Below are positions 4,882 to 25,700 of a stretch of DNA of 32,000 nt, piece by piece. The DNA comes from Pyrolobus fumarii 1A (GTDB taxonomy: Archaea; Thermoproteota; Thermoprotei_A; Sulfolobales; Pyrodictiaceae), in assembly GCF_000223395.1 (NCBI RefSeq), contig NC_015931.1:720001-752000 (forward strand), given 5' to 3'. The notes below the pieces were generated by a model, which saw nothing but the letters and a program-made list of their open reading frames with translations, made no database searches and was not told the origin of the DNA. The stretch's first letter is position 1. Every line of letters begins with the position of its first letter. The translations under genes were made by a program, and so were the position numbers.

Positions 4882-4900
4882 ATCGGAGGGGCTCTGTAAC

Positions 4901-4908
4901 TTGTATAA
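4901..4908 (-). promoter_or_regulatory. TATA-box candidate (TTATACAA on the minus strand) for the surface-protein gene, inside the 3' end of xpd
   Basis: The + strand ttgtataa at 4901-4908 lies 20-27 nt upstream of ATG 4881. This spacing fits a leaderless crenarchaeal transcript. Confidence 0.35.
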
Positions 4909-4913
4909 CAGCG

Positions 4914-6815
4914 TTACTGGATGTGCACACTCGTATCCCACAATCTCCTAACGGCCACGCGCAGAGCTTCACGTAACTCTTCTATGCTTTTGACAACCCT
5001 GTGGTATTTCAACCTGAGTAGCTCGCGGATACGAGGATTGAGGTACCTACGGTCCCCGAGAATGTATATTGCGCGATCCTCGTCGCTACGTATTGCTCTA
5101 CCCAGCGCCTGCCTGGCCTTCACGTAAGCCGTGACAGTGTATACGTAGTAACTGGCCTGAACCGGACCAACCTTCTCTGCAAGCTTCTCTATAACAGCCT
5201 TTGTGTAGTCATCGGGTTGCGGGTACGGGACGCCAGCCAGCATAACAGCGCTTATCAAACTCCTACCGTCACGGGTCAACTCTACTCCTTCCACGAGTTT
5301 CCCTCCAGCCACAGCATTCACTACCACCACTCTATGCTTCTCTAGGAGTTTCTCCACCTCCTTTCTCAAAGCATCAATGTTTGTATCCCTCTCTTCGCTA
5401 ACCATCACCACGTTACTAGAGAGCCTCGATACAATCTCTTTCATGAACTCGTAGCTCGGATAGACTACTAGTATGGCGCCCCTCAGTTCCTCCGCCAGCG
5501 TCTTCACGTACGAGGCGTACATATTGTACATCTCGCCGCTGCGTTCCCCGTAGCGTGACGTCAACTCGAGCGTCACAATCGTGTAGTACTTGCCGGATAT
5601 GTTGGATCCGTAGAGCAGCTCGGTGTCTATACTTACGCTACGCCTCTCGACGCAAAGAACGTCCCTGATGAACCTCTCGGGTGGCAGCGTCCCGCTCATC
5701 AGTATCACAGCCTTTGCGTTCATCAACGGTTCTCTGGTCACAACACAGTGGTCTACGGGCAGCGCTACTAGTTCTGCCTCGCCACTCTTACCCCTAGTGA
5801 CGAACACCTCTACACCCTCGAGAGACACTAGAGACGCGAAGACGGCAACCCTCGTCGCCGCGACACGTATGCGTGCTGCACTCGACGCACCCCCGCCAAG
5901 TGCTTCCCTGAACTTCTCGAGTCGAATCTCGGCAGCTAGGTCTGCTAATGCACCAGGATCCTCAACGGCACGGAGAACGATGGTCTTGTTTATGCGGCGT
6001 AGGCGGCCCTCGGGGGGCGGTTTCAGCTTAGCTAGTATACTGCGGAGTCTGGCAGCGACCGTCCTTCCCCACTCGGAGTCCGGTGCATACCTCTCAACCT
6101 CGGCGGCGAATGCCTCCACGTCGCGCCTCCGCAGCCTCTCCTCCAGTATCGAGCTAACGTCCATCAATGCATGCGCCTCATCCACGACGATGACATAGTC
6201 GCTGTACTCGTGCGGCTCGAACACAGACTCGAAGATGTCACGCTTGAAGACATAAGGGTACGTCGCTACTATGAATTTCACATCATCCACTAGCATCTTG
6301 AGCGCGAAGAATGGACATAGTCCCAGCTTCTCTAACTCCCGTACAGCGGCATACGGGCTAGGAGCGACCCTCCTAACCGCGTTGATTACAGGGCCTTTCA
6401 CATCACCCATCTGGACTAGGTTCTCGTAGTAGGGGCAGACGCCCTTCAAGCGGGCCAAGCGGCAATTCTCCCAGAACTCGTCGGGAGGCGGCGCCTCGCC
6501 ACGCTCCCCGCGCAGCAGAGGGCACATCCTCCTAGCACTATAGAGGAAGACGTAGTCGACACCGAAGCGGCTTAACTCGCGAAGCACCGGCTCTATCTCG
6601 TTACGCGTCCTCACAAGATACAACACGCGCTCTACCCCAGCCAGGAGCAGCCCGTATATCACTGCAGCCGTCTTGCCGAAGCCCGTCGGCGCCCTCAGCA
6701 GTAGAACCTCGCCCCTCTCAACAACCCTCTTTACAACCTCGGCTACCTCGCGCTGCCCTCGGCGGAACCTATCATACGGGAACCTCACGTTCTCTTGCTT
6801 GCCAGCGTTGCTCAC
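4914..6815 (-). CDS. xpd: XPD/Rad3-family 5'-3' DNA helicase with Fe-S cluster domain
   Basis: Walker A LLLRAPTGFGKTA and DEAH box VVDEAHAL. Four Cys lie between them (MCPLL, ENCRLA, VCPYY, LCPFF), as in the XPD 4Fe-4S domain. GTG start is preceded by GGGGAGGGG. Confidence 0.85.
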   Translation of the reverse strand: MSNAGKQENVRFPYDRFRRGQREVAEVVKRVVERGEVLLLRAPTGFGKTAAVIYGLLLAGVERVLYLVRTRNEIEPVLRELSRFGVDYVFLYSARRMCPLLRGERGEAPPPDEFWENCRLARLKGVCPYYENLVQMGDVKGPVINAVRRVAPSPYAAVRELEKLGLCPFFALKMLVDDVKFIVATYPYVFKRDIFESVFEPHEYSDYVIVVDEAHALMDVSSILEERLRRRDVEAFAAEVERYAPDSEWGRTVAARLRSILAKLKPPPEGRLRRINKTIVLRAVEDPGALADLAAEIRLEKFREALGGGASSAARIRVAATRVAVFASLVSLEGVEVFVTRGKSGEAELVALPVDHCVVTREPLMNAKAVILMSGTLPPERFIRDVLCVERRSVSIDTELLYGSNISGKYYTIVTLELTSRYGERSGEMYNMYASYVKTLAEELRGAILVVYPSYEFMKEIVSRLSSNVVMVSEERDTNIDALRKEVEKLLEKHRVVVVNAVAGGKLVEGVELTRDGRSLISAVMLAGVPYPQPDDYTKAVIEKLAEKVGPVQASYYVYTVTAYVKARQALGRAIRSDEDRAIYILGDRRYLNPRIRELLRLKYHRVVKSIEELREALRVAVRRLWDTSVHIQ

Positions 6816-9507: not shown

Positions 9508-10842
9508 GTGCCTAGAGGCGCAGTTATACTTGTTGAGCATCGTGACACCAAGTATAGCATTAACGCTCTTGTGGCGTCGCTTGACGCTGCCCGCGTAGCA
9601 GATGTCATGGTATCTAGGTGGCTTAGCGAGGCGCTTAGCACTCTGACCGGGATCGTCGAACGCTATGAGCGTATAGTTGTCGGCGTTTCTCTCATGACCG
9701 AGCATTTCGTCACAGAGTTTAGCGCTATACGCGAGTTTGTGTCAAAGGCTAGGCGGGTGGCAGGAGAGAAGCTCCTTCTGGTTGCAGGCGGGCCCCACGC
9801 TACTGGCGACCCTCTCGGCACGCTACGGACTGGTTTTGATGCCGTTGTTGTCGGTGAGGGCGAGGTTACACTACCCCTGCTCGTAGAGGCGTGGTTCGAG
9901 GAAGGCTGGGACGGCGTCACTCGCGTTAAGGGCGTCGCATTCCTCGAAGAGGATAGACTCGTGTATACTGGCCACCGGCCCAGGATCAACCTTGACGAGT
10001 ACTGGTCCTTCCCGTGGTGGAGACGCCGCTTCTCACCCATCGAGATAACCAGGGGTTGCCACTGGGGCTGCAGGTACTGCGAAACCTGGTTCATACATGG
10101 TGGTAGGGAGAGACACAGGAGTATAGAGAGTATACTGGAGCACGTGAGGATAATGCTGAAGCATGGATTACGAGATATACGGTTTATCACACCGAACGCG
10201 CTTGGCTATGGGGAGCGTGTAAGGGGAGAGAGATGCCTAGATCTTGTCGGCGACCTGCTTGAGACTATCCACAGAGTCGGTAGCCGCGAGGGCGCACGCA
10301 TATTCTTCGGTAGCTTCCCTAGCGAGGTCCGACCAGAGTACGTTGACGACGAGGCGGCTAGGCTGTTAAAACGCTATGTCGCAAACAAGCGCGTGATTAT
10401 AGGCGCCCAGTCTGGCAGCGAGAGGATACTAAAATTGCTGAATAGGGGACACACGCCAGAGGACGTGCTAAACGCCGTGCATGTGCTAGTGAGGCACGGC
10501 TTCCGCCCCGAGGTGGACTTCATTTTCGGTCTGCCCGGCGAGACTAGAGAAGACATAGAGGCGAGCCTCAACCTGATGAAACAGATTGTCAAGCTTGGTG
10601 GCCGTGTACACGCACACACCTTCATGCCGTTACCAGGGACACCGTTGGAATCAGCACCGGGCGGTAGGATACCACAGTGGCTGCGCCGGGAGATACACAG
10701 GCTAATAGGCTTTGGCGGCCTTTATGGTCAGTGGGAGAAGCAGGAGAAGCTTGCTCAACTGATACACGATTTCTACCGTAAGGGGTTGATACAGGGGCTA
10801 CGCGGCTGGAGCAACGCCATACTAAGGCCCGGCAGTATGTGA
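9508..10842 (+). CDS. B12-binding-domain radical SAM protein
   Basis: ITRGCHWGCRYC is the CxxxCxxC radical SAM cluster motif. The N-terminal LLLVAGGPHATGDP is a Rossmann-like B12-binding-type domain. GTG start. Confidence 0.85.
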   Translation: MPRGAVILVEHRDTKYSINALVASLDAARVADVMVSRWLSEALSTLTGIVERYERIVVGVSLMTEHFVTEFSAIREFVSKARRVAGEKLLLVAGGPHATGDPLGTLRTGFDAVVVGEGEVTLPLLVEAWFEEGWDGVTRVKGVAFLEEDRLVYTGHRPRINLDEYWSFPWWRRRFSPIEITRGCHWGCRYCETWFIHGGRERHRSIESILEHVRIMLKHGLRDIRFITPNALGYGERVRGERCLDLVGDLLETIHRVGSREGARIFFGSFPSEVRPEYVDDEAARLLKRYVANKRVIIGAQSGSERILKLLNRGHTPEDVLNAVHVLVRHGFRPEVDFIFGLPGETREDIEASLNLMKQIVKLGGRVHAHTFMPLPGTPLESAPGGRIPQWLRREIHRLIGFGGLYGQWEKQEKLAQLIHDFYRKGLIQGLRGWSNAILRPGSM

Positions 10843-11058: not shown

Positions 11059-11799
11059 TTATTTCAGTAATAGGCTCGCCCATGGATCCTCTGTTAGATC
11101 GGCGAGTGTCTTTGGTATACGGTTGACTAGTATCTTTGAGATCAGCGCTAGCGCTGTTCCTATGGTGCGGTAGGCTAGACCTCTAAACACTAACGAGTAT
11201 ATCAGCCAGATAGAGCCCACGGCTATGTGTGGGGCTAGCGCCTGAAGCCCCGGAGCTAGCGCATTCATTGATGCTAGGTACGGGCCTATGATTGCCACCG
11301 CCCATGCTGTTAACAACGTCGCTATGAACAGCAGGTGGTCTAGTATGTCTCTACCCGTGTATCCTCTTGGAAACAGGACTCGCTCTAGCCATTTACTGCG
11401 CAGTAGATAGGCGCCCACCACGGCAGCCGTGTAGGCTGGCGCCGCGAAGTAGAGCCCGGTTATTATGTGAGCGTGGTAGCCCATTCCTATGGCTAGCTGA
11501 GGCCAGCTTATGAAGAACTTCTCTAGCTCTGGCGAGATTATGGGCAACGCGTGTGGACGCAGGACGGTATTAGCAGCGTAGATCACTCCCCTAGTAGCAC
11601 CAACTATTATCGCCGTTAATGCTGCAGCGACTATGCCTAGGTATAACAGCCAGGTTACTAGCCACTCGCCAACATCCCTCCTCTTCAACAAGACCCTAAG
11701 GTTTAGCACTAAATCAAACAACGCCACTATCCTTGGCATTACGTGCTCGGAGACCCAACTATACTCGGAACGAGCCCGAGCCTCCACCCCACTCATCAC
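11059..11799 (-). CDS. Integral membrane protein (4-5 TM) with intramembrane His residues; possible b-type cytochrome or quinol-interacting partner of the 14-haem cytochrome
   Basis: Its start overlaps the stop of the upstream cytochrome gene (minus strand reads GTGATG at 11799-11794). TM-embedded His occur in GYHAHIITGLYF, LDHLLFIATLL and APHIAVGSIW. The functional call is inference. Confidence 0.6.
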   Translation of the reverse strand: MMSGVEARARSEYSWVSEHVMPRIVALFDLVLNLRVLLKRRDVGEWLVTWLLYLGIVAAALTAIIVGATRGVIYAANTVLRPHALPIISPELEKFFISWPQLAIGMGYHAHIITGLYFAAPAYTAAVVGAYLLRSKWLERVLFPRGYTGRDILDHLLFIATLLTAWAVAIIGPYLASMNALAPGLQALAPHIAVGSIWLIYSLVFRGLAYRTIGTALALISKILVNRIPKTLADLTEDPWASLLLK

Positions 11800-13076
11800 C
11801 TCTCACCCCCTTCATACACGTAAACAACTCGTGGAGTCTGGACGAGATGCCATTCATAGTGGCACTCGAAACAATTACCATCAGCCTTCTTGACCATCAT
11901 CTCGTGCATGATACCATAGCCGCTTACAAGTGCTGCGTGCATAGCTAGTCCACGCAGAGCGTCACTCTTGAGTCCACCATACTCGTCGTGGCACTTGCCG
12001 CATAGCTCTACATCCGCTGCCGATTTTACAAAGACAGTATGGTTGATTGGATTGGGCTCGTGGCATACGCTACAGTTGTAACTATAAGCCGCTGCATGTA
12101 CAAGGTGTAACCCCACGCTCACTGCTTCACGTATGGTGTCACCATGACAACCCTTACAACCGCGGAGAGCAACCAATGTAACATTCGGTGCCACGAAGCC
12201 TCTATGGCACTTACTACAATCCTGTAACTCCTCATACTTGTCGTGTAGCTTAGTCTTACGGGGGTCGTGGCACTCGACACAAATGTCGATACCAGGTTTC
12301 CAGCCGTGAGGCATGTCGGATAGATGGCAGTCGATGCACACTATTGTCCTATGCTCATACTCCTTACCGTAGTGCTTCTGGTGCCCATCGTTTAGAGGTT
12401 CTGTGTGGCAGGCGAGGCATGGGTTCACAGGTCTATATGTGAAGCCCAGCTTCTCCATCAGCATTCCTACAGCCATGTTGACGCCTCCATAGCTGGTGGC
12501 GTTTGGCGCTAGTTGCGCAGCAGGCACCACGGGGCTCTCAGAGTGACACGCGGTACAGGCTGCGCGTATGGTCTTGACCATATCACCGTGTATCTCAGCC
12601 GCATCGTGACACTTCAAACAGACCTTATTGCGTGGCTTATCCGTGTGGTGACCATGGTACGCATTAACATGACAATCCACGCATTGGACCGGGCGCGCGA
12701 GTCCCATCTTCGCTAGTTCCTCCTCACTAGCCTCTAGGTGTTTCCAGTGGAACTCTCCAGGAACACGGTGACACATTAGACACTCTCCATGCTCCTCAAC
12801 AAGGTGCTCTAACTTGACGTCGCGATAGAAGGGTATGCCTGGAAGTATCTCGCTCTTTACGCCGAAGCCGTGGCACCCGATACACCAGAACGGCCCGGTT
12901 ATGTTCTTAGGATCGAGAACCTTCGTGTCGTGGCAGCCTTCGCTGCAGAGCGACACGCTCTCAAAGTACCCTGGTATTGTAGCCTTCCAGTACCCCCACA
13001 TAGCCACTACAAACACAGCTATTATCAAGATTGTTTTCACAAGTTTCGTAGCAACGCTTGCCGTCATAGCATCCAC
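11796..13076 (-). CDS. Membrane-anchored multihaem cytochrome c (14 haem-binding motifs)
   Basis: N-terminal TM KTILIIAVFVVAMWGYW. There are 13 CxxCH motifs (CIGCH, CLMCH, CVDCH, CLKCH, CTACH, CLACH, CIDCH, CVECH, CSKCH, CKGCH, CSVCH, CGKCH, CFECH) and one CxxxCH (CSEGCH) in 426 aa. GGTG lies upstream of the ATG. Confidence 0.9.
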   Translation of the reverse strand: MDAMTASVATKLVKTILIIAVFVVAMWGYWKATIPGYFESVSLCSEGCHDTKVLDPKNITGPFWCIGCHGFGVKSEILPGIPFYRDVKLEHLVEEHGECLMCHRVPGEFHWKHLEASEEELAKMGLARPVQCVDCHVNAYHGHHTDKPRNKVCLKCHDAAEIHGDMVKTIRAACTACHSESPVVPAAQLAPNATSYGGVNMAVGMLMEKLGFTYRPVNPCLACHTEPLNDGHQKHYGKEYEHRTIVCIDCHLSDMPHGWKPGIDICVECHDPRKTKLHDKYEELQDCSKCHRGFVAPNVTLVALRGCKGCHGDTIREAVSVGLHLVHAAAYSYNCSVCHEPNPINHTVFVKSAADVELCGKCHDEYGGLKSDALRGLAMHAALVSGYGIMHEMMVKKADGNCFECHYEWHLVQTPRVVYVYEGGER

Positions 13077-13160
13077 ACCCTTAGAACTACTTTACTCCAG
13101 TTTGTCTCAGAAAATAATGCTTATACTCAAATTTTTCCATCGTTCTTTAAGTAAGTAGCT

Positions 13161-14891
13161 TTAACTGCGTTCTTTGCGATTAATCGCAACACCCTCTAGA
13201 ATAGGGGCAGCGATAATACCCGCTATACCAACTGCATGAAGAAGGCCTGCGAGAGGCACGCGATACACGGTTACTACGGCATTCACATACTCTATGCTAG
13301 CGTTCTTCGAGAACGCGTAGTTCAACAGTAGTTTTGCAGTGCCCGTCAGGTCGCCTCTCTCACCCCAGCTGACAACCATGGCTGTATAGAGAGCGTAACG
13401 TAGCGCATCGTTACCTGTTAACTTCGGGTCAGAGAGCATGATGAGATAGTCCCTTGCTAGCTTACATGACTCGTTCTTGCTGAGCTCGATGCTGTCTAGC
13501 CACTCTAAGCTCCACAGGTCTAGACGCACATACGTTCCATTCGGCGTGATGCTCGACGGACAGGCTGCAACCGCCGGCGGGAGTACTAAGCTAGTCCCTA
13601 GACAGTCTATCTCTACTATCATTTGCGGTATGCTCGAAGGATGCTTAGAGGATATATTCAGTGCAGATACGTTGATACCCTTTGCCTCAGCCGCAAGACG
13701 CAACACGTGCGTAAACCGCGCGAATTCCAACGCAGCCTCCTTTCCAACGCTGCCCGCAAGCCAAGAGTAGACTATTGTCTGGTTTATCACGCCCCAGTAT
13801 AACGGATAGAAGTAGTGGACTATACTAGTGTCTGGTATCGGCGCTGGCCCGGTCTCGCCTAGCGAAACGGGCTTGACGCTACATTCTACGGCTATAGGCA
13901 CACGTGGGGCTGCCAGGAGGGCTAGGAGAGCTAGAACACCCACACAGATGCCGACCTTAGGCAGGATATCTGCTAGTCTAGTTCTCCTAGTGCTCATTAT
14001 GCTGGCTGCTACACCCGCCAGGCTTATACCCATGACCGTAACTAGCAGTGCACCAGCCCTGGCTACTAGAGGCACTGGAGCTACCGCTTCTATGGGCGTG
14101 GCTACACCCAAACCGATTAGCTGTAAGTCGCTGGGCGTTACACGCGCCTCCCTACGCACTAAAACTGGTAGTATAGTCCAAGCGCCCACAGCGACACCGA
14201 CAATGCCGGGCACCGCCTCGATGCCAGACCCGTAGACCCTCATGTACGGAGTGTAGCCGGCTAGAGCTAGTGAGGAGAGCACACCCATTGATGCAAGAGC
14301 GACCCCCCGACCGACATTGGCTCTGCTCGCGCAACCACCGACAACACATAGGGAGGCTACAACCAACATCAATGCTACTAGCGGCTCACCTACCAGCGGT
14401 ACATGGATGCGCGTGGTAAGAATCATCCACGTTGATAACACTCCTAGTATACAAGCAGATGCCACTCCCGAGGATAGGATCACAGTGTATTTAATCTTGT
14501 CGTTCCGGGCTACAAGACTACCAGCTGCAAAACCAGCAACTAGATACACGAGAGGCACTATGATGTCAAGAATGCCTGCGCCACGAGCATCATATTCTAC
14601 CAGCCCGCCTCCAAGGAGCCATGCTATGCCAGCGGAGATCGCCGCTATACTTCCTGGCATGTAGCTTCCACCTAAACGGGATGCTACGAGGATACCTAGC
14701 AGGAAGAGCGTTACGTGAAGCGGTGTCACTTGAGACAATGGACCAGCCACAAGCATAACGACGAGGATTGCCAATACTACGGGGCTTACAACTAATACTG
14801 CACTAGGCACTCTTCTTCCTCGTACAACGTGGTAGACGATAATCAACTCAAGGGTTATGGCGAGTAGCGCCAACGTGAAAGCGACATCCAT
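13161..14891 (-). CDS. Large polytopic membrane protein (~10 TM) with ~200-aa sequon-rich ectodomain and C-terminal TM; unknown function
   Basis: 576 aa. The N-terminal ~330 aa are almost entirely hydrophobic helices. The ectodomain carries NQT, NVS, NIS, NGT, NES and NAS sequons. The C-terminus is HAVGIAGIIAAPILEGVAINRKERS. No family recognised. Confidence 0.65.
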   Translation of the reverse strand: MDVAFTLALLAITLELIIVYHVVRGRRVPSAVLVVSPVVLAILVVMLVAGPLSQVTPLHVTLFLLGILVASRLGGSYMPGSIAAISAGIAWLLGGGLVEYDARGAGILDIIVPLVYLVAGFAAGSLVARNDKIKYTVILSSGVASACILGVLSTWMILTTRIHVPLVGEPLVALMLVVASLCVVGGCASRANVGRGVALASMGVLSSLALAGYTPYMRVYGSGIEAVPGIVGVAVGAWTILPVLVRREARVTPSDLQLIGLGVATPIEAVAPVPLVARAGALLVTVMGISLAGVAASIMSTRRTRLADILPKVGICVGVLALLALLAAPRVPIAVECSVKPVSLGETGPAPIPDTSIVHYFYPLYWGVINQTIVYSWLAGSVGKEAALEFARFTHVLRLAAEAKGINVSALNISSKHPSSIPQMIVEIDCLGTSLVLPPAVAACPSSITPNGTYVRLDLWSLEWLDSIELSKNESCKLARDYLIMLSDPKLTGNDALRYALYTAMVVSWGERGDLTGTAKLLLNYAFSKNASIEYVNAVVTVYRVPLAGLLHAVGIAGIIAAPILEGVAINRKERS

Positions 14892-14980
14892 ACACTTCAG
14901 CCATTAAAAATTATGAAAATAGTACATAAAAGTATTTCTATCATGTAGAATGTTTTGTGAGAAAAACGTAACGCGTATGT

Positions 14981-14986
14981 AAAAAA
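14981..14986 (-). terminator. T6 tract downstream of the octahaem cytochrome gene (candidate oligo-T terminator)
   Basis: A6 on the + strand at 14981-14986 (T6 on minus), 36-41 nt past the stop at 15022. It lies within a 130-nt AT-rich spacer. Confidence 0.3.
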
Positions 14987-15021
14987 GAAGTGGGGATGGG
15001 GTTAACCACAATGCCGCTTGT

Positions 15022-17022
15022 TTAGGCTACCCTCCTGACCGCGAACGCGACCATACCGAATGCTAGCGCTAGTAGGGAGGCAAGAGCGTTGGTGCTGCCG
15101 CCCTCCTCGCCAACGTCGACCTTTAGCACCTTAACCGCGCCGTCGGTCTTGACTGGGACGTCGGTTACTAGCGGCTTCACAATCGCCTCCTTAGCCTCGC
15201 TACCCTCAATCTTCTTGACGTACTCCTTGACCTCTGGTAGCTGAGTTATTAGGGTGTTGACTGTCTTCTCAATCTCGCTAACCACCAGCTCCTTCTCGAC
15301 CTTGCTCATGGTGGCAGTCGCGCCAGTTGCGCCAGTCTCACCCTCGAACTGCTCCTTGAGCCATGGCAGTATGTGCTCGATCTCCTCGATTATCTCTGGG
15401 GCCTTCTTGCGGATCGCTGGCCTCTCGTATAGGTCGATTAGCCACTCCTCGATCTTCTCGGCGAAGTGCATTATGCCCTCCCACCAGACGAAGTCTGGGC
15501 CGAAGTGGGCTGCAGACATCTTGGTCGGCCTGTTAGCCATGGCACCGAGGTTCCTCACTATCCACTTGTCCATTGGCGTGAAGAGGCCCTTCTCCTGCAG
15601 CTTCGTTACTATGTCTAGCACGTACTTGTCTCTCATGTAGTCGACTAGTATGATCATCCAGTCGTAGGTCTTTAGCCAGCTGGCAGCATACCTCTTCGTG
15701 TGGCACTGGGCACACATGTCGATAGCGCGCTGCCTCCTAGCCTTCCAGTCGGGCTCCGGATAGACTAGCTTGATCTCCTCGCCGGTTGTCGGGCTCTTGA
15801 AGACTGCTGGCTGTGTGGCAGTGGCGCCTGGGAAGGCTGGGTCTGGTAGGCCTGGCAGCCTTGGTAGTGTGACTAGCCAGCGACCTAGCTTGAACTTGCT
15901 GATGATCGCAACATCGTGGCTGCTCGCGTACTTGACCTCACCTCTCTCGTTGTACACCGCAGCCATGTGGCAGGTTACACAGGTTGGCGCCCTGAAGTCG
16001 CGACCTGGCACCCAGTTGTTGACTGGCTTGTCCCAGTCCCAGTCCTCAGCCTCGCCCCAGAAGATAGCGCCGTGGACGCTCTTGCTCCACTGTTCGTCGT
16101 TCGGGTGGTCTGGGCCAGTGTGGCAGCGGCCACAGGCCTGGTAGGCGCCCTTCCTAGCGATCTTGACGCTGAAGCTGTGGTATGGGTGGCACGCCTCACA
16201 GCTGCCTAGGCTGCCGTCCGGGTTGACGCGACCAATGCCGTGGTTGGTGACGAATGCTGGGTCGAAGATCACCTTGTCTGGCGCCTTACCCTCCTTCATG
16301 TACTTCATTAGCTCGTCTAGGCTCGGGTAGGCGAATGCATCCTTGACGTCTAGCCTTACACCGTGGCAGCCTAGACAGCCCCTGATACCCCAGATGTATA
16401 GCGCCTTGGTAACCCTGTAGTTGTCGATGTCTAGGCCTAGCGGGTTGTAGGGTATGATCGCGTTGGTTGGATCGCCATAGAGTACCTCCTTACCGTACTC
16501 GTTGTCGCCGGTGAACTCGCGGACGATCTCTGGCACCCACTCGGTCACTATGTACTCCTTGGGTAGCTTGAAGTCCTCAGTCCAGCCGAACTGTGCCGCA
16601 ACGATGGTCCAGTATGCTGGGAACTCGGATAGCGCGTAAGCGTGTAGGCCTGCGAAGGCGTGGACGCTCTTCTGGAACTCCTCAGCAATTGATGGGTGGC
16701 AGCGGCCGCACTGCTTGGGAGTCACTACGAGCGTTATGTAGTAGCCATAGTGCTCGAAGACGTCTGGCCTGGTACCGGGCTGGGCTGCGTGACACTCGTA
16801 GCAGCCTACACCCACTATGCGGTGCTTGCTCTTATACCAGTCGTAGACGATGAATGGTGTTGCACGCAGGTGACACTCGACACAGTCCTGCGACTCTTTC
16901 GTCAGCTTCACGCCCGCCAGGTTGATGTAGTCGCCCCACTCGAAGGTCATTGCAGTAGCGATGCCGCTGGCTAGTAGTAGGGCAATGAATAGGGATAGGG
17001 TGGCTAGTGCTACGCGTCTCAT
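15022..17022 (-). CDS. Octahaem cytochrome c of the hydroxylamine oxidoreductase (HAO)-like family, with C-terminal linker/stalk and TM anchor
   Basis: Eight CxxCH motifs: CVECH, CYECH, CGRCH, CLGCH, CEACH, CGRCH, CVTCH, CAQCH. HAO-like context includes CVECH...VYDWYKSKH and AAHFGPDFVWWEG. The ORF is open to GTG 17067, but ATG 17022 gives MRRVALATLSLFIALLLASGIATA. C-terminus is ALASLLALAFGMVAFAVRRVA. Confidence 0.85.
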   Translation of the reverse strand: MRRVALATLSLFIALLLASGIATAMTFEWGDYINLAGVKLTKESQDCVECHLRATPFIVYDWYKSKHRIVGVGCYECHAAQPGTRPDVFEHYGYYITLVVTPKQCGRCHPSIAEEFQKSVHAFAGLHAYALSEFPAYWTIVAAQFGWTEDFKLPKEYIVTEWVPEIVREFTGDNEYGKEVLYGDPTNAIIPYNPLGLDIDNYRVTKALYIWGIRGCLGCHGVRLDVKDAFAYPSLDELMKYMKEGKAPDKVIFDPAFVTNHGIGRVNPDGSLGSCEACHPYHSFSVKIARKGAYQACGRCHTGPDHPNDEQWSKSVHGAIFWGEAEDWDWDKPVNNWVPGRDFRAPTCVTCHMAAVYNERGEVKYASSHDVAIISKFKLGRWLVTLPRLPGLPDPAFPGATATQPAVFKSPTTGEEIKLVYPEPDWKARRQRAIDMCAQCHTKRYAASWLKTYDWMIILVDYMRDKYVLDIVTKLQEKGLFTPMDKWIVRNLGAMANRPTKMSAAHFGPDFVWWEGIMHFAEKIEEWLIDLYERPAIRKKAPEIIEEIEHILPWLKEQFEGETGATGATATMSKVEKELVVSEIEKTVNTLITQLPEVKEYVKKIEGSEAKEAIVKPLVTDVPVKTDGAVKVLKVDVGEEGGSTNALASLLALAFGMVAFAVRRVA

Positions 17023-17077
17023 ACCCCAGACACCCGCCGTCACTTTTCCATGTCTTTGATTGTTCACAATATGCGAC

Positions 17078-17085
17078 TATTTAAA
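17078..17085 (-). promoter_or_regulatory. TATA box (TTTAAATA on the minus strand) for the octahaem cytochrome gene
   Basis: The + strand tatttaaa at 17078-17085 matches the archaeal consensus. Its position implies a TSS near 17055, downstream of GTG 17067, which favours ATG 17022 as the start. Confidence 0.45.
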
Positions 17086-17285
17086 CAAAACTTTACGCGA
17101 GCAATCTATTCACAAAAACACACGTTAATTTCAAATCGTTAATTTCTGTTAAGGTTAGAGAGGGGTGTTCGCGATTACGTCATGTACAAAACATGATCGC
17201 GGCTTCAACGTGTATTATTATCACGCAATCACGAATAGGTAGACAAGCATACACGCTTCAACATAAAAACACAAGGTTGGAAAAA

Positions 17286-18044
17286 TCACTTTTTCCTACG
17301 AGAATAGATATAGTCGGCTACCGTGTAGATGGCTAGCGCTGCACCAACAGCCAATGCGACGTTGAGCAGCATTGATGTTAACATTGTATTATTATCTCTA
17401 CCTTCCTCCCTAACGACAACTATGTTTACTGTGGGTGCCGTGTCGGACGTCGTGTATATGTTGATGTCACCTCCTGGTATCTTCTGGCCAGTCTCGTTGT
17501 CGAAAAGCGCTAGCCGTATCTTGAAGAAGTACTGAGCCTCGTGTACACCAGGAGTCGCGTTGAAGTATCGCTCATGGGCTATTATCGATATTTGGCGTGT
17601 AACCGTGTTCTCGTACACAGGCCTTATAGCAGCATGTAAGGCCCCGGATCCTATTACTGCTCCGCCCTCGCCCCACTCCCACATAGACTCTACTGGTTTG
17701 AAGAGTGTTGGGTCTATCCGATATCCTGGGTCTACCACTTGTATTGTGATTATTCCGTCCCAGGGGCCAGTCCAGTTGACATGTACAGTAACGTTGACAA
17801 CTCCTAGTATGTTGGGAGGCCGCAGGTATAGAGTGTCAGGATAGTATATGTCTGCGTATACCTCGATTGTAGTGTTATCCGTCAATCTCTGGTATACTGG
17901 GCCCATGCGCGCATGTAGTATGTGGATTGTTATTTCGCGGCTGTTAGCGAAGCTCGTCATGTACACCAGGGGTATCAGTATCAACAGGATTGCCGAGACC
18001 GCTACTATAGGATGGACGCTGCGCCTAGCCTCCACGGCTATCAC
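17286..18044 (-). CDS. Bitopic surface protein (N-terminal TM, beta-rich sequon-rich ectodomain, C-terminal TM and basic tail); unknown function
   Basis: 252 aa. N-terminal helix is IVAVSAILLILIPLVYM and the C-terminus is LLNVALAVGAALAIYTVADYIYSRRKK. Sequons NTT, NVT, NWT, NAT, NET and NNT are present. The GTGA start/stop overlaps the upstream gene at 18041-18044. Confidence 0.6.
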   Translation of the reverse strand: MIAVEARRSVHPIVAVSAILLILIPLVYMTSFANSREITIHILHARMGPVYQRLTDNTTIEVYADIYYPDTLYLRPPNILGVVNVTVHVNWTGPWDGIITIQVVDPGYRIDPTLFKPVESMWEWGEGGAVIGSGALHAAIRPVYENTVTRQISIIAHERYFNATPGVHEAQYFFKIRLALFDNETGQKIPGGDINIYTTSDTAPTVNIVVVREEGRDNNTMLTSMLLNVALAVGAALAIYTVADYIYSRRKK

Positions 18045-19018
18045 CTCGCAATGTTCTCAAGGTAGTCCATCACGGTGTATATGTCGCCACGCTGGTATAC
18101 CTTGTTGTTGAATACTAGAACAGTGTCAATGTCGCTCCACCTTAGACCGATATAGGCGAATAGTTTGTCAATGCCATTCTTGACGCTGTTGCTCGTCTCG
18201 AAGAACTCTAGCGTAGGGTCTGCGATGACGAATGTCTTTAGAGGCTTGACATATGCTATGCTCACACAATGGTTGTATCCTTCTTTACCAAAGAAGCACA
18301 TGACCCAGGCGTCTCCAAAGCTACCGAGATACTCTAGATAGAGGCTTGTTAGGAGGATAGCCTTGTCCTCGCAGTCGCCAGCCTTGCGTATCAAAGTCTC
18401 AAGCGGTGTTTGTATATAGTTATCGGTCTTCTTTATCTTGAATGCATATACATATTTCTTTCCATTCATGTCTACGTACTTCACGTCACTTATTACTACA
18501 AATGGGTGGTCGGGGCTCGTCTTCACCTCCCTGACCGTGTAGTTATAGAGCATCTCCATGTGTTTCAGCGCCTTTTTGGGGTTGAATAGGGGGACTCCAA
18601 CGACCTCCATTACTATATCTGCAACCCTACCTGGGGTCACGTACTGTCTAACATCCTGCGTGTAGTATGCCCGGGGATATGTTAGCTTGAACAACTCTGT
18701 TATACTCGCATTGAGGTTCTCTAGTATCCTCGTGACGACGAGCGCCTCTTTGAGAGTCTCATTAGCTGTTGTTACCAGCTCTGCGAGCCTCCTTAATCGC
18801 TCGCGCAGCGTCTTTATCTGAAGTAGCAGGGCTGTATTGTTATCCTCTAGTTTTGCGGCACGTTTAGCGAGTAGCGTAAACGTCTCGTTAAGGCTGCTGT
18901 AAGCTTCGAGGAGTTTGTTGTACTTGTTCACTTGTTGAGTATAGAGTGTTGCCCAAACAGCGTTGCTCGCGGCCAGCGCAACTAGCAGGAGGAGCACTAC
19001 ACCGCGCTTGTCTACCAT
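18041..19018 (-). CDS. Membrane-anchored transglutaminase-like (Cys-His-Asp papain-fold) protein with coiled-coil N-terminal region
   Basis: Signal/TM is VVLLLLVALAASNAVWA. A heptad-rich segment follows (LLEAYSSLNETFTLLAKRAAKLEDNNTALLLQIKTLRERLRRLAEL). The TGase-core pattern is AGDCEDKAILLTSLYL ... YNHCVSIAYV ... IADPT. Confidence 0.65.
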   Translation of the reverse strand: MVDKRGVVLLLLVALAASNAVWATLYTQQVNKYNKLLEAYSSLNETFTLLAKRAAKLEDNNTALLLQIKTLRERLRRLAELVTTANETLKEALVVTRILENLNASITELFKLTYPRAYYTQDVRQYVTPGRVADIVMEVVGVPLFNPKKALKHMEMLYNYTVREVKTSPDHPFVVISDVKYVDMNGKKYVYAFKIKKTDNYIQTPLETLIRKAGDCEDKAILLTSLYLEYLGSFGDAWVMCFFGKEGYNHCVSIAYVKPLKTFVIADPTLEFFETSNSVKNGIDKLFAYIGLRWSDIDTVLVFNNKVYQRGDIYTVMDYLENIAR

Positions 19019-21621: not shown

Positions 21622-22457
21622 AGAGCCTCTAATGCCGCTTTTCTAGCTGCCTGGTATAGCTTCTCGCTAGGATCTATTCCGAGCCATATACGGTCTGCCT
21701 CAAGCGCCTGCCAGACAAGCATGCACAGCCCGTCTACAGTCCGTGCATTTCTTTCCCTAGCTGCACGGATTAGAGGCGTTTCTAACGGCTTATAGATAGC
21801 GTCAAACACGACATGCTTAGGGCTTATCGCATCCGTGTCTACTGGTGGCGCACCCCCGACCCCCTCCATGCCAAGAGGTGTCGCGTTGAACAACACATCC
21901 GCCTCCTCTATGGCCTCTCGGGGCGGAGGCCACGCTACGACACGTGCACGTAGTCCTAGGGCCTCCGCGATACCCGCAAGCTGGACAGCCCTGCTCCTGG
22001 TACGATTAGAGATTATGACTGTAGATGCCCCAAGATGCTGCGCGGCTAGCACCGCCGCTTTGGCTGCGCCACCCGCCCCTAGTACTAGCATCGTAAACCC
22101 GTCCGACGCTAGACCCCTCAAACACCTCTCTACACCATACACGTCTGTGTTGAAGCAGTGGAGTTTTGCACCCTCAACCTTTACCGTGTTTACCGCGCCG
22201 AGGATGCTTACCTCGCTGGACTCGCTATCACAGTGCGCCCGGACGCGTTCCTTGTGTGGAATGGTTACGTTGAAACCGTTAGCTAGGTTTCTCAAACCCT
22301 CGACAACAAAATGCACCTCGCGCCCCTCTACGTCCCAGAGGAGGTAAACTGCCTCGACACCCACTTTACGATAGACACTCTCGTGTATAACTGGGCTGAG
22401 GCTTTGAGCCACGGGGTGACCGATAAGACCATAGAGTCGCTTAGGACCCACCAGCAC
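21582..22457 (-). CDS. aroE: Shikimate 5-dehydrogenase
   Basis: LYGLIGHPVAQSLSPVIHE, NVTIPHK, NTD and LVLGAGGAAKA are canonical AroE motifs. Confidence 0.85.
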   Translation of the reverse strand: MLVGPKRLYGLIGHPVAQSLSPVIHESVYRKVGVEAVYLLWDVEGREVHFVVEGLRNLANGFNVTIPHKERVRAHCDSESSEVSILGAVNTVKVEGAKLHCFNTDVYGVERCLRGLASDGFTMLVLGAGGAAKAAVLAAQHLGASTVIISNRTRSRAVQLAGIAEALGLRARVVAWPPPREAIEEADVLFNATPLGMEGVGGAPPVDTDAISPKHVVFDAIYKPLETPLIRAARERNARTVDGLCMLVWQALEADRIWLGIDPSEKLYQAARKAALEALQRAVSRRARSTS

Positions 22458-23559
22458 GGTTAGACACCAGCCAGCAGGCTGTCCTATGCCCTGCTCCCAC
22501 CTCTACTAGCGGAGGCTCTCTAGTCTCACAGGCTGTACGCACCTCTGGATGCTCGTCTAGCGCGACGCATCTCGGTGCAAATCTACAACCCCTCGGGAGG
22601 TTTATCGGGTTCGGCACCTCGCCCTTGATCGGCACCTCACGATACTTCAGTCGGTTGCTCGGATCGGGTTCCGGCACGGCTGCTAGGAGGGCACGCGTGT
22701 ACGGATGACGCGGGTTCCCTATCACCTCGTCAGCTGGTCCCTCCTCCACAATGCGTCCGAGGTACATCACGGCTATCCTATCACAGACGTATCTTGCAGT
22801 AGCGAGATCATGCGTTATGAAGAGGAATGATATACCCATGTCGCGCTGCAAGCTCTTCAACAACTCGAGTATCTCTGCACGTATGCTAACATCGAGCATT
22901 GATACCGGCTCATCCGCCACTATGAACCTAGGATGCAACACAAGCGCTCTTGCTATTGCAACTCTTTGCCTCTGTCCTCCGCTCAGCTGATGCGGATAGC
23001 GGCTCATGTACTCCTCCGGCGGGGTCAATTTTACCGCCTCAAGAGCCTCAATTACGATTTTACGACGCTTACCTGGATCCTTTACACCATGCACGATGAG
23101 CGGCTCCTCTAGTATCTGGCGTATCCTGTACCTCGGGTTGAGGCTACCGTAAGGATCCTGGTGCACTAGCTGCATGTCGCGCCTAACGATCCTCATAGCC
23201 TTTTCCGGTATCCTGACTATATCGACAAACCCGTCGCTGAACACAGCGCCATTCTTTCCACCTAGTAACTTTCGAAGAGCGTCTATAATCTCGTCCCTCG
23301 GCCTGAAGTAAATGTCGCCACTAGTGATCGGCACTAGGCGTAGTATGGCTCTACCCGTTGTGGTTTTACCACAACCACTCTCTCCAACGAGGCAGTAGAA
23401 CTCCGAGCGATGTATCACGAAGCTAACACCGTCAACCGCATGTACAACGCGCGGAGGCCTCCTCTTGACTATCTCCGTTAGACTCCTACGTAACGGGAAG
23501 TACACCTTGAGATTCTTAACTACGAGGAGCCTCTCGCTCCCCGCCACGGTATGCTTCAC
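22441..23559 (-). CDS. ABC transporter ATP-binding protein of the Opp/Dpp/Nik (OppF-like) type
   Basis: Walker A GESGCGKTT, signature LSGGQRQRVAIARAL and Walker B IVADEPVSMLD. The C-terminal extension with NPRHPYTRALL matches the oligopeptide-type NBD tail. Confidence 0.9.
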   Translation of the reverse strand: MKHTVAGSERLLVVKNLKVYFPLRRSLTEIVKRRPPRVVHAVDGVSFVIHRSEFYCLVGESGCGKTTTGRAILRLVPITSGDIYFRPRDEIIDALRKLLGGKNGAVFSDGFVDIVRIPEKAMRIVRRDMQLVHQDPYGSLNPRYRIRQILEEPLIVHGVKDPGKRRKIVIEALEAVKLTPPEEYMSRYPHQLSGGQRQRVAIARALVLHPRFIVADEPVSMLDVSIRAEILELLKSLQRDMGISFLFITHDLATARYVCDRIAVMYLGRIVEEGPADEVIGNPRHPYTRALLAAVPEPDPSNRLKYREVPIKGEVPNPINLPRGCRFAPRCVALDEHPEVRTACETREPPLVEVGAGHRTACWLVSNRAGGS

Positions 23560-23977: not shown

Positions 23978-23980
23978 GCT

Positions 23981-25657: not shown

Positions 25658-25700
25658 GCTTACCTCACCCTTGTGCACATCCCTCTTTACCTCCTTATCA

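What the first reader, a model, noticed from the sequence alone, without database searches (positions are those of the whole stretch)
11059..17067. Four-gene multihaem cytochrome c cluster (22 haem motifs) in a crenarchaeal-looking genome
Four consecutive minus-strand genes form the cluster. They encode an HAO-like octahaem cytochrome, a 576-aa orphan polytopic membrane glycoprotein, a cytochrome with 14 haem motifs, and a His-bearing 4-5 TM protein. AT-rich spacers with TATA-like and oligo-T elements separate the first three genes, and the last two are translationally coupled. The architecture resembles a complete membrane-to-surface electron conduit: a quinol-side membrane subunit, an anchored multihaem wire, and a terminal haem enzyme held on a stalk outside the membrane. 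Multihaem c-type cytochromes are best described in bacteria and a few Euryarchaeota. To my knowledge such a cluster in this lineage is poorly characterised. It could support nitrite/hydroxylamine chemistry or mineral (Fe(III)) reduction at high temperature.
Basis: partly seen in the sequence, partly recalled or inferred. Interest (0 to 1): 0.85.

Follow-up and report, generated by a model that had tools for sequence, protein, structure and literature searches.

The report
Pyrolobus fumarii Mcc multihaem cytochrome cluster
The four genes are real and encode a 22-haem membrane cytochrome c system in the 113 °C archaeon Pyrolobus fumarii, but the locus (Pyrfu_0785-0788) is already catalogued and named in the literature as the counterpart of the 'Mcc' respiratory complex of Pyrodictium delaneyi, and its electron acceptor is still untested.

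Summary
The window is Pyrolobus fumarii 1A. The four minus-strand genes are Pyrfu_0788 (A, HAO-family octahaem), Pyrfu_0787 (B, orphan polytopic protein), Pyrfu_0786 (C, 13 CXXCH + 1 CX3CH) and Pyrfu_0785 (D, five-helix protein with five invariant His).

The cluster is not new. Kletzin et al. 2015 catalogued both cytochromes. Kashyap & Holden 2021 described the orthologous Pyrde_0784-0787 cluster as the 'Mcc' complex. Its octahaem subunit was 60-fold more abundant on ferrihydrite than on nitrate, and they cited Pyrfu_0785-0788 as its homologue.

This analysis adds several points:
- The conserved unit is six genes in seven Pyrodictiaceae genomes. A transglutaminase-like protein and an anchored protein always precede A.
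- The block splits into U1-U2-A and B-C-D modules.
- B, D, U1 and U2 were found only in Pyrodictiaceae-type loci.
- D matches no known cytochrome b or quinol-dehydrogenase family.
- A keeps the HAO catalytic Asp-His pair, which IhOCC lacks.

The most likely mechanism is a methylmenaquinol-fed, outward-facing electron outlet (D, then C, then A). The acceptor in P. fumarii is unresolved: nitrite/hydroxylamine, Fe(III), or relay to other reductases. Novelty is low. Biological interest is moderate.

The parts
18041..19018 (-). U1 = Pyrfu_0790 (325 aa). It has an N-terminal TM anchor, a coiled-coil region with 5 sequons, and a transglutaminase-like / LapG-like Cys-protease core (GDCEDKA).
   Evidence: Pfam DUF553 E = 6e-4. 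NCBIfam LapG E = 2e-4, below the cut-off. Exact match to Pyrfu_0790. Orthologue immediately upstream of U2-A in all 7 genomes, 28-56% identity.
17286..18044 (-). U2 = Pyrfu_0789 (249 aa as annotated, start at 18035). It has an N-terminal hydrophobic signal or anchor, a roughly 190-aa domain with 6 sequons, and a C-terminal TM anchor. It overlaps U1 by 4 nt and always lies directly upstream of A.
   Evidence: Orthologues are 42-65% identical in all 7 genomes. No Pfam or NCBIfam family.
17068..17285 (-). U2-A intergenic spacer (218 nt, GC 0.36). It starts with oligo-T and carries AT-rich TATA-like elements before A. It is the likely independent promoter of A.
   Evidence: Sequence and GC content. 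In P. delaneyi the A orthologue is regulated 60-fold independently of B and D (PMC8105010).
15022..17067 (-). A = Pyrfu_0788 (666 aa from M16 as annotated). It has a Sec-type signal peptide, an HAO-family octahaem domain (CXXCH at 62, 89, 120, 231, 290, 312, 363, 452 in ORF numbering; catalytic Asp320-His321), a helical and low-complexity stalk (about 570-655), and a C-terminal TM anchor (about 659-680).
   Evidence: 4qo5 E = 3e-67; D/H conserved as in HAO, HDH and HAOr; all nine significant fold hits are HAO family.
14892..15021 (-). A-B spacer (130 nt, GC 0.34). It has a T6 run about 35 nt after the A stop and TATA-like boxes 20-45 nt before the B start.
   Evidence: Insertions of 2 kb (L090) and 5 kb (L085) occur at this junction in relatives.
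13161..14891 (-). B = Pyrfu_0787 (576 aa). It is a poorly conserved Val/Leu/Ala/Gly-rich polytopic membrane region (about 10-12 segments, residues 1-330) followed by a conserved ecto-domain of about 200 aa with 6 sequons and a C-terminal TM. The membrane part has no conserved Cys or His. It is a lineage-restricted orphan.
   Evidence: only itself found; 24-32% identity to orthologues; invariant D101, R103, Y216, H359.
13077..13160 (-). B-C spacer (84 nt, GC 0.32) with a TATA-like box (GTATAAG).
11796..13076 (-). C = Pyrfu_0786 (423 aa from M4 as annotated). It has an N-terminal signal-anchor helix followed by 14 haem c sites (CX3CH at 44; CXXCH at 65, 99, 132, 153, 174, 220, 247, 266, 287, 307, 335, 359, 402). 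There are 13 further invariant His, enough for bis-His ligation of 13 of the 14 haems. It resembles an Hmc-like wire.
   Evidence: Cytochrome_C7, c3_2; HmcA model E = 2e-10, far below the equivalog cut-off. Kletzin 2015 supplement: 13 CxxCH, modelled on 2e84.
11059..11799 (-). D = Pyrfu_0785 (245 aa as annotated). It is an integral membrane protein with five long helices and five invariant His (H83, H109, H111, H155, H191). Its start overlaps the stop of C. It is the candidate quinol/haem b subunit, which is unproven.
   Evidence: 100% identical to Pyrfu_0785; pLDDT 83; 4 real clusters among 1.84 billion representatives; no PDB relative; NarI only at E = 1.4, TM 0.24.

Best explanation
This is the Pyrolobus fumarii copy of the Pyrodictiaceae-specific 'Mcc' membrane cytochrome c system. 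It is an outward-facing electron outlet of the respiratory chain.

Proposed electron path (inferred, not shown): methylmenaquinol reduced by the uptake hydrogenase is oxidised at the outer face of the membrane by the C-D sub-complex. D is a five-helix membrane protein whose invariant histidines cluster toward the outer face. It is translationally coupled to C, a signal-anchored 14-haem wire. Electrons run along C through the pseudo-periplasm to A. A is an HAO-family octahaem protein held on a C-terminal helical stalk and membrane anchor. Its catalytic haem site, with a conserved Asp-His pair, is the exit point.

B has no conserved redox ligands and an N-glycosylated ecto-domain, so it is most likely a scaffold or assembly subunit. 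The two conserved upstream genes encode a transglutaminase/LapG-like Cys-protease-fold membrane protein and an anchored partner. They most likely mature, process or position A.

The complex is conserved in species that use different acceptors. Its conserved role is therefore best read as a general quinol-to-extracytoplasmic electron-distribution module, not as a dedicated single-substrate enzyme.
For: Shown:
- The window is P. fumarii 1A and the genes are Pyrfu_0785-0790.
- 22 haem c motifs are invariant across seven genomes.
- A belongs to the HAO/IhOCC clade, with the catalytic Asp-His conserved and 10 invariant non-motif His. That number fits seven bis-His haems plus one open haem.
- A has an N-terminal signal and a C-terminal TM. 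C has an N-terminal anchor. Sequons are enriched in the ecto-parts of B, C, U1 and U2.
- The six-gene block is syntenic in P. delaneyi (two strains), P. abyssi and four MAGs.
- The C/D and U1/U2 overlaps indicate coupled synthesis.
- CcmF-type and thioredoxin genes adjoin the block in three relatives.

From the literature:
- The orthologue Pyrde_0784 is a haem-staining membrane protein that is 60-fold more abundant on ferrihydrite than on nitrate.
- The authors propose MMKH2 to Mcc to terminal reductases, and they name Pyrfu_0785-0788 as the homologue (PMC8105010).
- P. fumarii contains methylmenaquinone (cited).
- IhOCC is reducible by the native hydrogenase (PMC4429474).
Against: - No evidence here or in the literature shows that the proteins form one complex. 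In P. delaneyi only A was found in the excised haem band, and A was regulated independently of B and D.
- Promoter-like spacers and insertions between A and B argue for separable modules.
- D matches no known quinol-oxidising or cytochrome b family. Its His pattern has four near one face and one near the other, which is not that of a classical di-haem b subunit. Quinol oxidation by D is therefore a guess.
- B is too poorly conserved to assign any role.
- A retains a complete catalytic site, which a pure relay protein would not need.
Confidence: 0.55

Rival explanations
1. In P. fumarii the cluster is specifically the ammonifying nitrite/hydroxylamine reductase system. D and C deliver quinol electrons to A, which reduces nitrite made by nitrate reductase to ammonium by six electrons at its open haem. 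This would be analogous to epsilon-Hao/HaoB or NrfHA.
For: A is an HAO-family enzyme whose closest solved relatives are reductive, cross-link-free members. These are IhOCC, described as an octahaem nitrite reductase, and Kuenenia HAOr. The catalytic Asp-His is conserved. From my own knowledge (Bloechl et al. 1997), P. fumarii reduces nitrate to ammonium, so it needs such an enzyme. A quinol-linked membrane cytochrome plus an HAO-type enzyme is the known logic of HaoAB and NrfHA.
Against: The P. delaneyi orthologue is 60-fold lower on nitrate than on ferrihydrite. P. delaneyi strain Hulk carries the cluster but does not respire nitrite. The block is conserved in P. abyssi, which as far as I know is not a nitrate ammonifier. 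P. fumarii has two further HAO paralogues, Pyrfu_1334 and Pyrfu_1339, that could do this job. A 14-haem wire is more than a periplasmic nitrite reductase needs.
Confidence: 0.25
2. The cluster is a dedicated extracellular electron-transfer conduit for insoluble Fe(III) oxide. C and A form a haem wire from the membrane to the S-layer, and A touches the mineral directly.
For: The orthologue is strongly induced on ferrihydrite, and P. delaneyi needs direct mineral contact. The system has 22 haems, membrane anchors at both ends and a stalk on A. In the archaeal survey, multihaem cytochrome numbers track metal respiration.
Against: Apart from a passing remark in PMC4429474, I know of no report that P. 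fumarii grows by Fe(III) reduction. Kashyap & Holden themselves assign the terminal Fe(III) reductase role to molybdopterin enzymes, not to Mcc. Whether A reaches beyond the S-layer was not assessed. A keeps an enzyme-type active site.
Confidence: 0.15
3. There are two unrelated systems that merely sit side by side. U1-U2-A is a surface-anchored HAO-type enzyme with its own processing factors. B-C-D is a separate membrane cytochrome complex with a different partner.
For: A is separated from B-C-D by 5 kb of unrelated genes in L085 and by 2 kb in L090, while U1-U2-A and B-C-D each stay intact. AT-rich promoter-like spacers flank A. A was regulated independently of B and D.
Against: Both modules co-occur in every one of the seven genomes, always in the same order and orientation and always within 5 kb. 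Both are restricted to the same lineage. C needs an electron acceptor and A needs a donor.
Confidence: 0.2
4. A works in the oxidative direction, as a true hydroxylamine or hydrazine oxidoreductase that feeds electrons inward.
For: Family membership and the conserved Asp-His pair.
Against: The nearest relatives are the reductive, cross-link-free branch. The Tyr cross-link is reported to be confined to the HAO/HDH sub-clade (PMC9250108). P. fumarii is an obligate H2 oxidiser with no ammonia-oxidation pathway (own knowledge). No conserved Tyr could be aligned to the cross-link position.
Confidence: 0.03

Closest known systems
Mcc complex of Pyrodictium delaneyi (Pyrde_0784-0787; Kashyap & Holden 2021, PMC8105010)
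   Same: It is orthologous gene for gene, in the same order: A 73%, B about 32% (C-terminal part only), C 54% and D 66% identity. Haem counts are identical (8; 13+1). The same two upstream genes are present.
   Different: In P. delaneyi a CcmF-type gene and a thioredoxin gene lie directly upstream. In P. fumarii the neighbours are fibrillarin and a radical-SAM gene. P. fumarii is known for nitrate, thiosulfate and O2 respiration rather than iron. The paper gives '11 and 6 haems' for P. fumarii, which the sequence contradicts.
IhOCC, Igni_0955 of Ignicoccus hospitalis (PDB 4QO5)
   Same: It is the closest solved structure (E = 3e-67 with a profile). It has the eight-haem HAO-type core, comes from a crenarchaeon, and belongs to the cross-link-free reductive branch.
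   Different: Identity is only about 24-40% in the aligned blocks. IhOCC has Asp-Val where A and all HAO, HDH and HAOr proteins have Asp-His. A carries extra insertions, a stalk of about 100 aa and a C-terminal TM. IhOCC was found in both soluble and membrane fractions. I found no evidence that Ignicoccus has the B, C, D, U1 or U2 partners. The D profile found only Pyrodictiaceae-type sequences.
Reductive HAO systems: Kuenenia HAOr (Kustc0457/0458, PDB 6H5L) and epsilon-Hao/HaoB of Campylobacterota
   Same: Each is an octahaem HAO-family enzyme without the Tyr cross-link, working reductively on nitrite and fed by a partner cytochrome (epsilon-Hao from my own knowledge).
   Different: Their partners are a dihaem cytochrome or a NapC/NrfH-type tetrahaem quinol dehydrogenase. 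Here the partners are a 14-haem anchored cytochrome plus two orphan membrane proteins.
Hmc/Nhc/Tmc transmembrane cytochrome complexes of sulfate reducers (HmcA 16-haem, PDB 2E84)
   Same: A large c3-type multihaem wire on the outside is coupled to integral membrane subunits. C gives its best NCBIfam hit to HmcA (E = 2e-10) and was modelled on 2e84 by Kletzin et al..
   Different: The score of 39.7 bits is far below the 400-bit equivalog cut-off. There is no FeS subunit. By Pfam there is no NrfD-like or NarI/HdrE-like subunit. Fold search does not support a NarI fold for D.
NrfH/NapC/CymA quinol dehydrogenases and the NarI cytochrome b
   Same: The presumed role is the same: the entry point for quinol electrons into an extracytoplasmic haem chain.
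   Different: D has no haem c motif and no Cys, so it is not NrfH/NapC-like. It has no significant sequence or fold match to NarI (E = 1.4, TM 0.24). Its invariant His pattern differs from the two-plus-two pattern of di-haem b subunits.

Membership tests
HAO / octahaem cytochrome c family (PF13447; HAO-HDH-IhOCC clade) | Eight CXXCH motifs in the family's order, with significant sequence similarity to solved members | tested here: met
   A has 8 CXXCH. PF13447 scores 76 bits against a 21.9-bit cut-off. Profile E-values are 3e-67 for 4qo5, 3e-31 for 6h5l and about 1e-20 for HDH and HAO. All nine fold hits with E < 1e-3 are HAO family (the model is low confidence).
HAO / octahaem cytochrome c family (PF13447; HAO-HDH-IhOCC clade) | Catalytic Asp-His pair after the sixth haem motif (CHxGxDH) | tested here: met
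   The motif is CHTGPDHPNDEQW. D320 and H321 are invariant in the 20-sequence alignment A1 and align with the DH of 1fgj, 4n4j, 6hif and 6h5l. IhOCC has DV.
HAO / octahaem cytochrome c family (PF13447; HAO-HDH-IhOCC clade) | One five-coordinate catalytic haem and seven bis-His haems | tested here: inconclusive
   The 10 invariant non-motif His in seven orthologues would allow 7 distal ligands plus H321. Ligation itself cannot be read from sequence, and the model (pLDDT 57, no haems) is too poor to use.
Oxidative HAO/HDH (P460 enzymes) | Tyrosine that cross-links to the catalytic haem of the neighbouring subunit | tested here: inconclusive
   Alignments to 1fgj and 4n4j stop before the cross-link region. 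No invariant Tyr lies in residues 460-570 of A; the invariant Tyr residues are 107, 144, 172, 380 and 436. The closest relatives lack the cross-link.
Oxidative HAO/HDH (P460 enzymes) | Homotrimeric ring assembly | not testable with these tools
   Only a monomer prediction was possible.
Pyrodictiaceae Mcc complex (Pyrde_0784-0787) | Orthology of all four genes, in conserved order | tested here: met
   BLASTP gives A 73%, C 54%, D 66% and B 32% identity to L081, with the same order and strand. Kashyap & Holden cite the locus as the homologue.
Pyrodictiaceae Mcc complex (Pyrde_0784-0787) | Expression as haem-staining membrane protein(s), induced on ferrihydrite | not testable with these tools
   This is known only for P. 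delaneyi Pyrde_0784. I found no P. fumarii expression data.
Hmc-type high-molecular-weight cytochrome complex | HmcA-equivalent cytochrome together with an FeS subunit and NrfD-like and NarI/HdrE-like membrane subunits | tested here: not met
   C scores 39.7 bits against the 400-bit cut-off of NF045713. The block has no FeS protein. B and D have no Pfam or NCBIfam hit at E <= 1.
NarI-type di-haem cytochrome b (candidate identity of D) | Sequence or fold similarity to NarI, and two His pairs on two helices | tested here: not met
   No Pfam hit. The profile against PDB sequences gave nothing. Foldseek's best NarI hit has E = 1.4 and TM 0.24. The invariant His residues lie at 83 (loop), 109 and 111 (start of helix 107-131), 155 and 191.
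NrfD/PsrC-type quinol-interacting subunit (candidate identity of B) | Match to PF03916 or a solved NrfD-like protein | tested here: not met
   None of the seven B orthologues hits it at E <= 1. The profile against the PDB gave nothing.
[quoted passage not shown] | Presence of CcmC/F-type haem lyase genes | not tested
   None is in this 32-kb window. A 995-aa PF01578 protein and a thioredoxin adjoin the block in P. delaneyi, P. abyssi and L085. Kletzin et al. report Ccm proteins in archaea that encode cytochromes c. The P. fumarii genome itself could not be scanned.

The most novel reading that the evidence does not exclude
The C-D pair is a new kind of quinol:multihaem-c oxidoreductase. Its membrane subunit D, with five invariant His and no detectable relative outside the Pyrodictiaceae, would bind its cofactor in a way unrelated to NarI, NrfD, NrfH or cytochrome b. 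The HAO-type enzyme A would have been recruited, with its own protease-like maturation factors U1 and U2, as the surface-exposed terminal reductase of a hyperthermophilic electron conduit working above 100 °C. It would be either the missing archaeal ammonifying nitrite reductase or a mineral-contacting ferric reductase.
Probability: 0.25. Interest if true: 0.7.

Novelty: already known. Interest (0 to 1): 0.35.

Why it matters
P. fumarii grows up to 113 °C, and the terminal parts of its respiratory chain are unknown. This lineage-specific 22-haem system is one of the few candidates for how Pyrodictiaceae pass electrons out of the membrane, whether to nitrite, iron minerals or other reductases.

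Establishing its acceptor would show whether HAO-type enzymes serve ammonification or mineral respiration in Archaea. That bears on proposals that the ancestral octahaem cytochrome was a nitrite reductase (PMC9250108).

As a discovery the locus is not new. The value of this analysis lies in refinement: the six-gene unit, its two modules, the orphan status of B and D, and corrected haem counts.

Tried and rejected
It returned only distant HAO-like loci at 26-33% identity, mostly bacterial, and no Pyrodictiaceae. I rebuilt synteny from the look-up of encoding contigs instead.
2. The exact-product look-up of the 681-aa ORF failed because the annotated start is M16.
3. The word-indexed homology search for B returned only B itself. 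No approved alignment existed, so B's structure was not predicted.
4. The D model (pLDDT 83) found no PDB fold at E < 1. The repeated NarI entries at E = 1.4-4.8 and TM <= 0.25 were judged insufficient.
5. P0147, a 1106-aa hit of the D profile, is a low-complexity repeat translation and was discarded.
6. The AlphaFold model of A was poor (pLDDT 57) and was used only as a weak consistency check.
7. I suspected an archaeosortase-type sorting signal in the VPAAxP-like C-termini of Pyrodictium A orthologues. No NCBIfam model matched, and the motif is absent in P. fumarii.
8. The sigma-70 and intrinsic-terminator scan is not informative for an archaeon: counts were at or below shuffle expectation. 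I read the spacers directly instead.
9. No cytochrome c maturation gene was found in the window.

Full report
**1. Observation**

- A (15022-17067) has eight CXXCH motifs.
- C (11796-13076) has thirteen CXXCH plus one CX3CH (CSEGCH).
- B and D have none.
- Residue shuffles give 0.01 and 0.14 motifs on average, so the 22 motifs are far beyond chance.

A matches Pfam Multi-haem_cyto (PF13447, E = 4e-21) and, weakly, the hydrazine dehydrogenase model. C matches only generic c7/c3 models and, at 39.7 bits, the 16-haem HmcA model. B and D match nothing in Pfam or NCBIfam even at E <= 1.

The A-B and B-C spacers have GC 0.34 and 0.32, against 0.53 for the window. They carry oligo-T runs and TATA-like boxes. 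C and D overlap. Every descriptive statement in the finding is therefore confirmed.

**2. Source and prior knowledge**

D is 100% identical to Pyrfu_0785. The window is 99.994-100% identical to assemblies of Pyrolobus fumarii 1A sequencing runs.

Exact look-ups identify:
- A as Pyrfu_0788 (annotated from M16, 666 aa, 'multiheme c-type cytochrome');
- B as Pyrfu_0787;
- C as Pyrfu_0786 (from M4, 423 aa);
- the two genes upstream of A as Pyrfu_0789 and Pyrfu_0790.

The supplement of Kletzin et al. 2015 (PMC4429474) already lists Pyrfu_0788 in 'Cluster 04 HAO' with eight CxxCH, beside the paralogues Pyrfu_1334 and Pyrfu_1339. It lists Pyrfu_0786 as a 13-CxxCH protein modelled on the Desulfovibrio Hmc cytochrome 2e84.

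Kashyap & Holden 2021 (PMC8105010) describe the orthologous Pyrde_0784-0787 as a putative membrane cytochrome complex, 'Mcc', unique to the Pyrodictiaceae:
- They identify the octahaem subunit in a haem-stained band.
- They find it 60-fold more abundant on ferrihydrite than on nitrate.
- They find B and D not differentially produced.
- They propose the path methylmenaquinol to Mcc to terminal reductases.
- They name Pyrfu_0785-0788 as the homologous cluster.

They do not mention the HAO relationship. They also give 11 and 6 haems for P. fumarii, which the sequence contradicts.

**3. The real unit**

I recovered loci around close homologues from P. delaneyi Su06 and Hulk (L081, L082), P. abyssi (L089) and four MAGs (L083, L084, L085, L090). 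All carry the same six genes in the same order:
- U1, a transglutaminase-like membrane protein of about 325 aa;
- U2, an anchored protein of about 250 aa;
- A, B, C and D.

Identities to the window are A 47-82%, C 44-63%, D 45-75%, U2 42-65% and U1 28-56%. B reaches only 32-40%, over its C-terminal third.

In L085 about 5 kb of unrelated genes separate U1-U2-A from B-C-D, and in L090 about 2 kb do. Each half stays intact, so the block consists of two modules.

None of U1, U2, B or D has a homologue in 80 loci from other lineages that encode HAO-like proteins. These loci are mostly bacterial, with several from other archaeal MAGs. A profile of D found only four genuine clusters among 1.84 billion representative proteins, all matching the Pyrodictiaceae-type sequences already in hand.

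In P. delaneyi, P. abyssi and L085 a 995-aa PF01578 (CcmF-type) protein and a membrane thioredoxin lie beside the block. Demey et al. 2017 call the P. delaneyi gene ccmF. No maturation gene lies in this window.

**4. The parts**

*A.* A's closest solved relative is IhOCC of Ignicoccus hospitalis (4qo5, E = 3e-67 with a profile). Kuenenia HAOr, HDH and the HAOs follow. The AlphaFold model is poor (pLDDT 57), but all nine of its significant fold matches are HAO-family structures.

The Asp-His pair that follows the sixth haem motif in HAO, HDH and HAOr is invariant in the A family (D320, H321). IhOCC has Asp-Val there.

Ten invariant non-motif histidines fit seven bis-His haems plus an open catalytic haem. 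The cross-linking tyrosine of oxidative HAOs could not be aligned. The nearest relatives lack it, and it is reported to be confined to the HAO/HDH sub-clade.

A has a signal peptide. After the conserved core, which ends near residue 570, it has a low-complexity and helical segment and a C-terminal TM helix.

*C.* C has an N-terminal signal anchor, 14 invariant haem sites and 13 further invariant histidines. One haem may therefore lack an intrinsic distal His.

*D.* D models confidently (pLDDT 83) as five long helices. Its invariant His residues are 83, 109, 111, 155 and 191. By the positive-inside rule, four of these lie toward the outer face.

D has no sequence or fold relative in the PDB. 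NarI appears only at E = 1.4 with TM 0.24.

*B.* B is a Val/Leu/Ala/Gly-rich polytopic region with almost no conserved residues. It is followed by a conserved ecto-domain of about 200 aa that holds all six sequons. The membrane part has no conserved Cys or His.

*U1.* U1 has the Cys-protease/transglutaminase core (DUF553 E = 6e-4; LapG E = 2e-4, below the cut-off).

**5. Mechanism**

The best-supported reading is the published Mcc idea, refined as follows.
- C-D is a tightly coupled sub-complex that takes electrons from the methylmenaquinol pool at the outer face and conducts them along 14 haems.
- A is an HAO-type enzyme tethered by a C-terminal stalk, and it is the outlet.
- B is a scaffold.
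- U1 and U2 are accessory factors for A.

What is shown: the haem sites, the family of A, the topology signals, the synteny, the lineage restriction, and (in the orthologue) expression and regulation. What is inferred: quinol oxidation by D, physical association of the proteins, and the acceptor.

The block is kept in species with different acceptors: P. fumarii, P. delaneyi and P. abyssi. P. delaneyi strain Hulk has it but does not respire nitrite. I therefore rank a general outlet (0.55) above a dedicated nitrite/hydroxylamine reductase (0.25) or a dedicated Fe(III) conduit (0.15).

The intact catalytic site of A keeps the nitrite option open for P. fumarii, which makes ammonium from nitrate (own knowledge, Bloechl et al. 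1997). Two paralogues compete for that role.

A fourth possibility is that the two modules are functionally separate (0.2). The insertions and the independent regulation support it. Strict co-occurrence argues against it.

**6. Comparison with known systems**

The cluster is a member of the Mcc orthologue group, and A is a member of the HAO family. It is not an Hmc-type complex: it has no FeS subunit and no NrfD- or NarI-like subunit. D is not a recognisable NarI, NrfH or cytochrome b protein.

Functionally it resembles HaoAB, NrfHA and Kuenenia Kustc0457/0458, in which a partner cytochrome feeds a reductive multihaem enzyme. It differs in having a much longer wire and orphan membrane subunits.

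**7. Verdict**

Novelty: already known. Interest is moderate (0.35) because the acceptor, the role of D and the U1-U2 link are open and testable.

Noticed in passing
window 15022-17067 (gene A); L086 about 5979: The Logan assembly of run SRR064176 differs from the window by a single missing G inside gene A. This splits Pyrfu_0788 into 418-aa and 231-aa calls. The window's frame agrees with all orthologues, including the eighth haem motif downstream, so the deletion is probably an assembly or read error rather than a pseudogene.
   Followed up: yes
window 11796-13076 and 15022-17067: Kashyap & Holden 2021 state that the P. fumarii cluster contains '11- and 6-heme' cytochromes. The sequence has 13 CXXCH + 1 CX3CH and 8 CXXCH, identical to P. 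delaneyi and matching the Kletzin 2015 supplement. The conserved CX3CH site, which makes C a 14-haem protein, is not counted in either paper.
   Followed up: yes
window 17286-19018 (-): Two overlapping genes always precede the octahaem gene in seven genomes, even where B-C-D has been displaced. They are Pyrfu_0790, a transglutaminase/LapG-like Cys-protease-fold membrane protein, and Pyrfu_0789, an anchored protein rich in sequons. They may process or attach the cytochrome.
   Followed up: partly
window 11796-13076 (-): C has 14 invariant haem-motif His but only 13 invariant additional His. One haem may be five-coordinate, or may be ligated by another residue or by a partner subunit such as D, whose invariant His cluster lies toward the outer face.
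   Followed up: no
L081 3547-7750; L089 1-2153; L085 1558-6162: In P. delaneyi, P. abyssi and one MAG a 992-995-aa PF01578 (CcmF-type) cytochrome c assembly protein and a membrane thioredoxin sit next to the block. In P. fumarii and its close relative L090 that position is occupied by fibrillarin and an M28 peptidase.
   Followed up: partly
L081, L083, L084, L085, L089: C-termini of the A orthologues: The Pyrodictium-type A orthologues end in a VPAAxP-like motif just before or within the last hydrophobic helix, which resembles archaeosortase sorting signals. No NCBIfam model matched, and P. fumarii lacks the motif.
   Followed up: partly
window 1525-4941 (-): This is an 1138-aa protein with a Peptidase_C25 (gingipain-type) domain and a long C-terminal coiled-coil region. 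It is conserved in the related MAG L090 (1100 aa). It is a large putative surface protease in a hyperthermophilic archaeon.
   Followed up: no
window 22441-25678 (-): This is a metal-uptake operon. It has a single 565-aa fusion of a ZnuA-type binding protein with an ABC-3 permease, a NikR-like RHH regulator (153 aa), and an ABC ATPase carrying an oligo_HPY C-terminal domain.
   Followed up: no
window 9508-10842 (+): A B12-binding radical-SAM protein is convergent with D. A radical-SAM gene also lies just downstream of D in P. delaneyi, P. abyssi and L090, in varying orientation. This may be coincidental conservation of neighbourhood.
   Followed up: no
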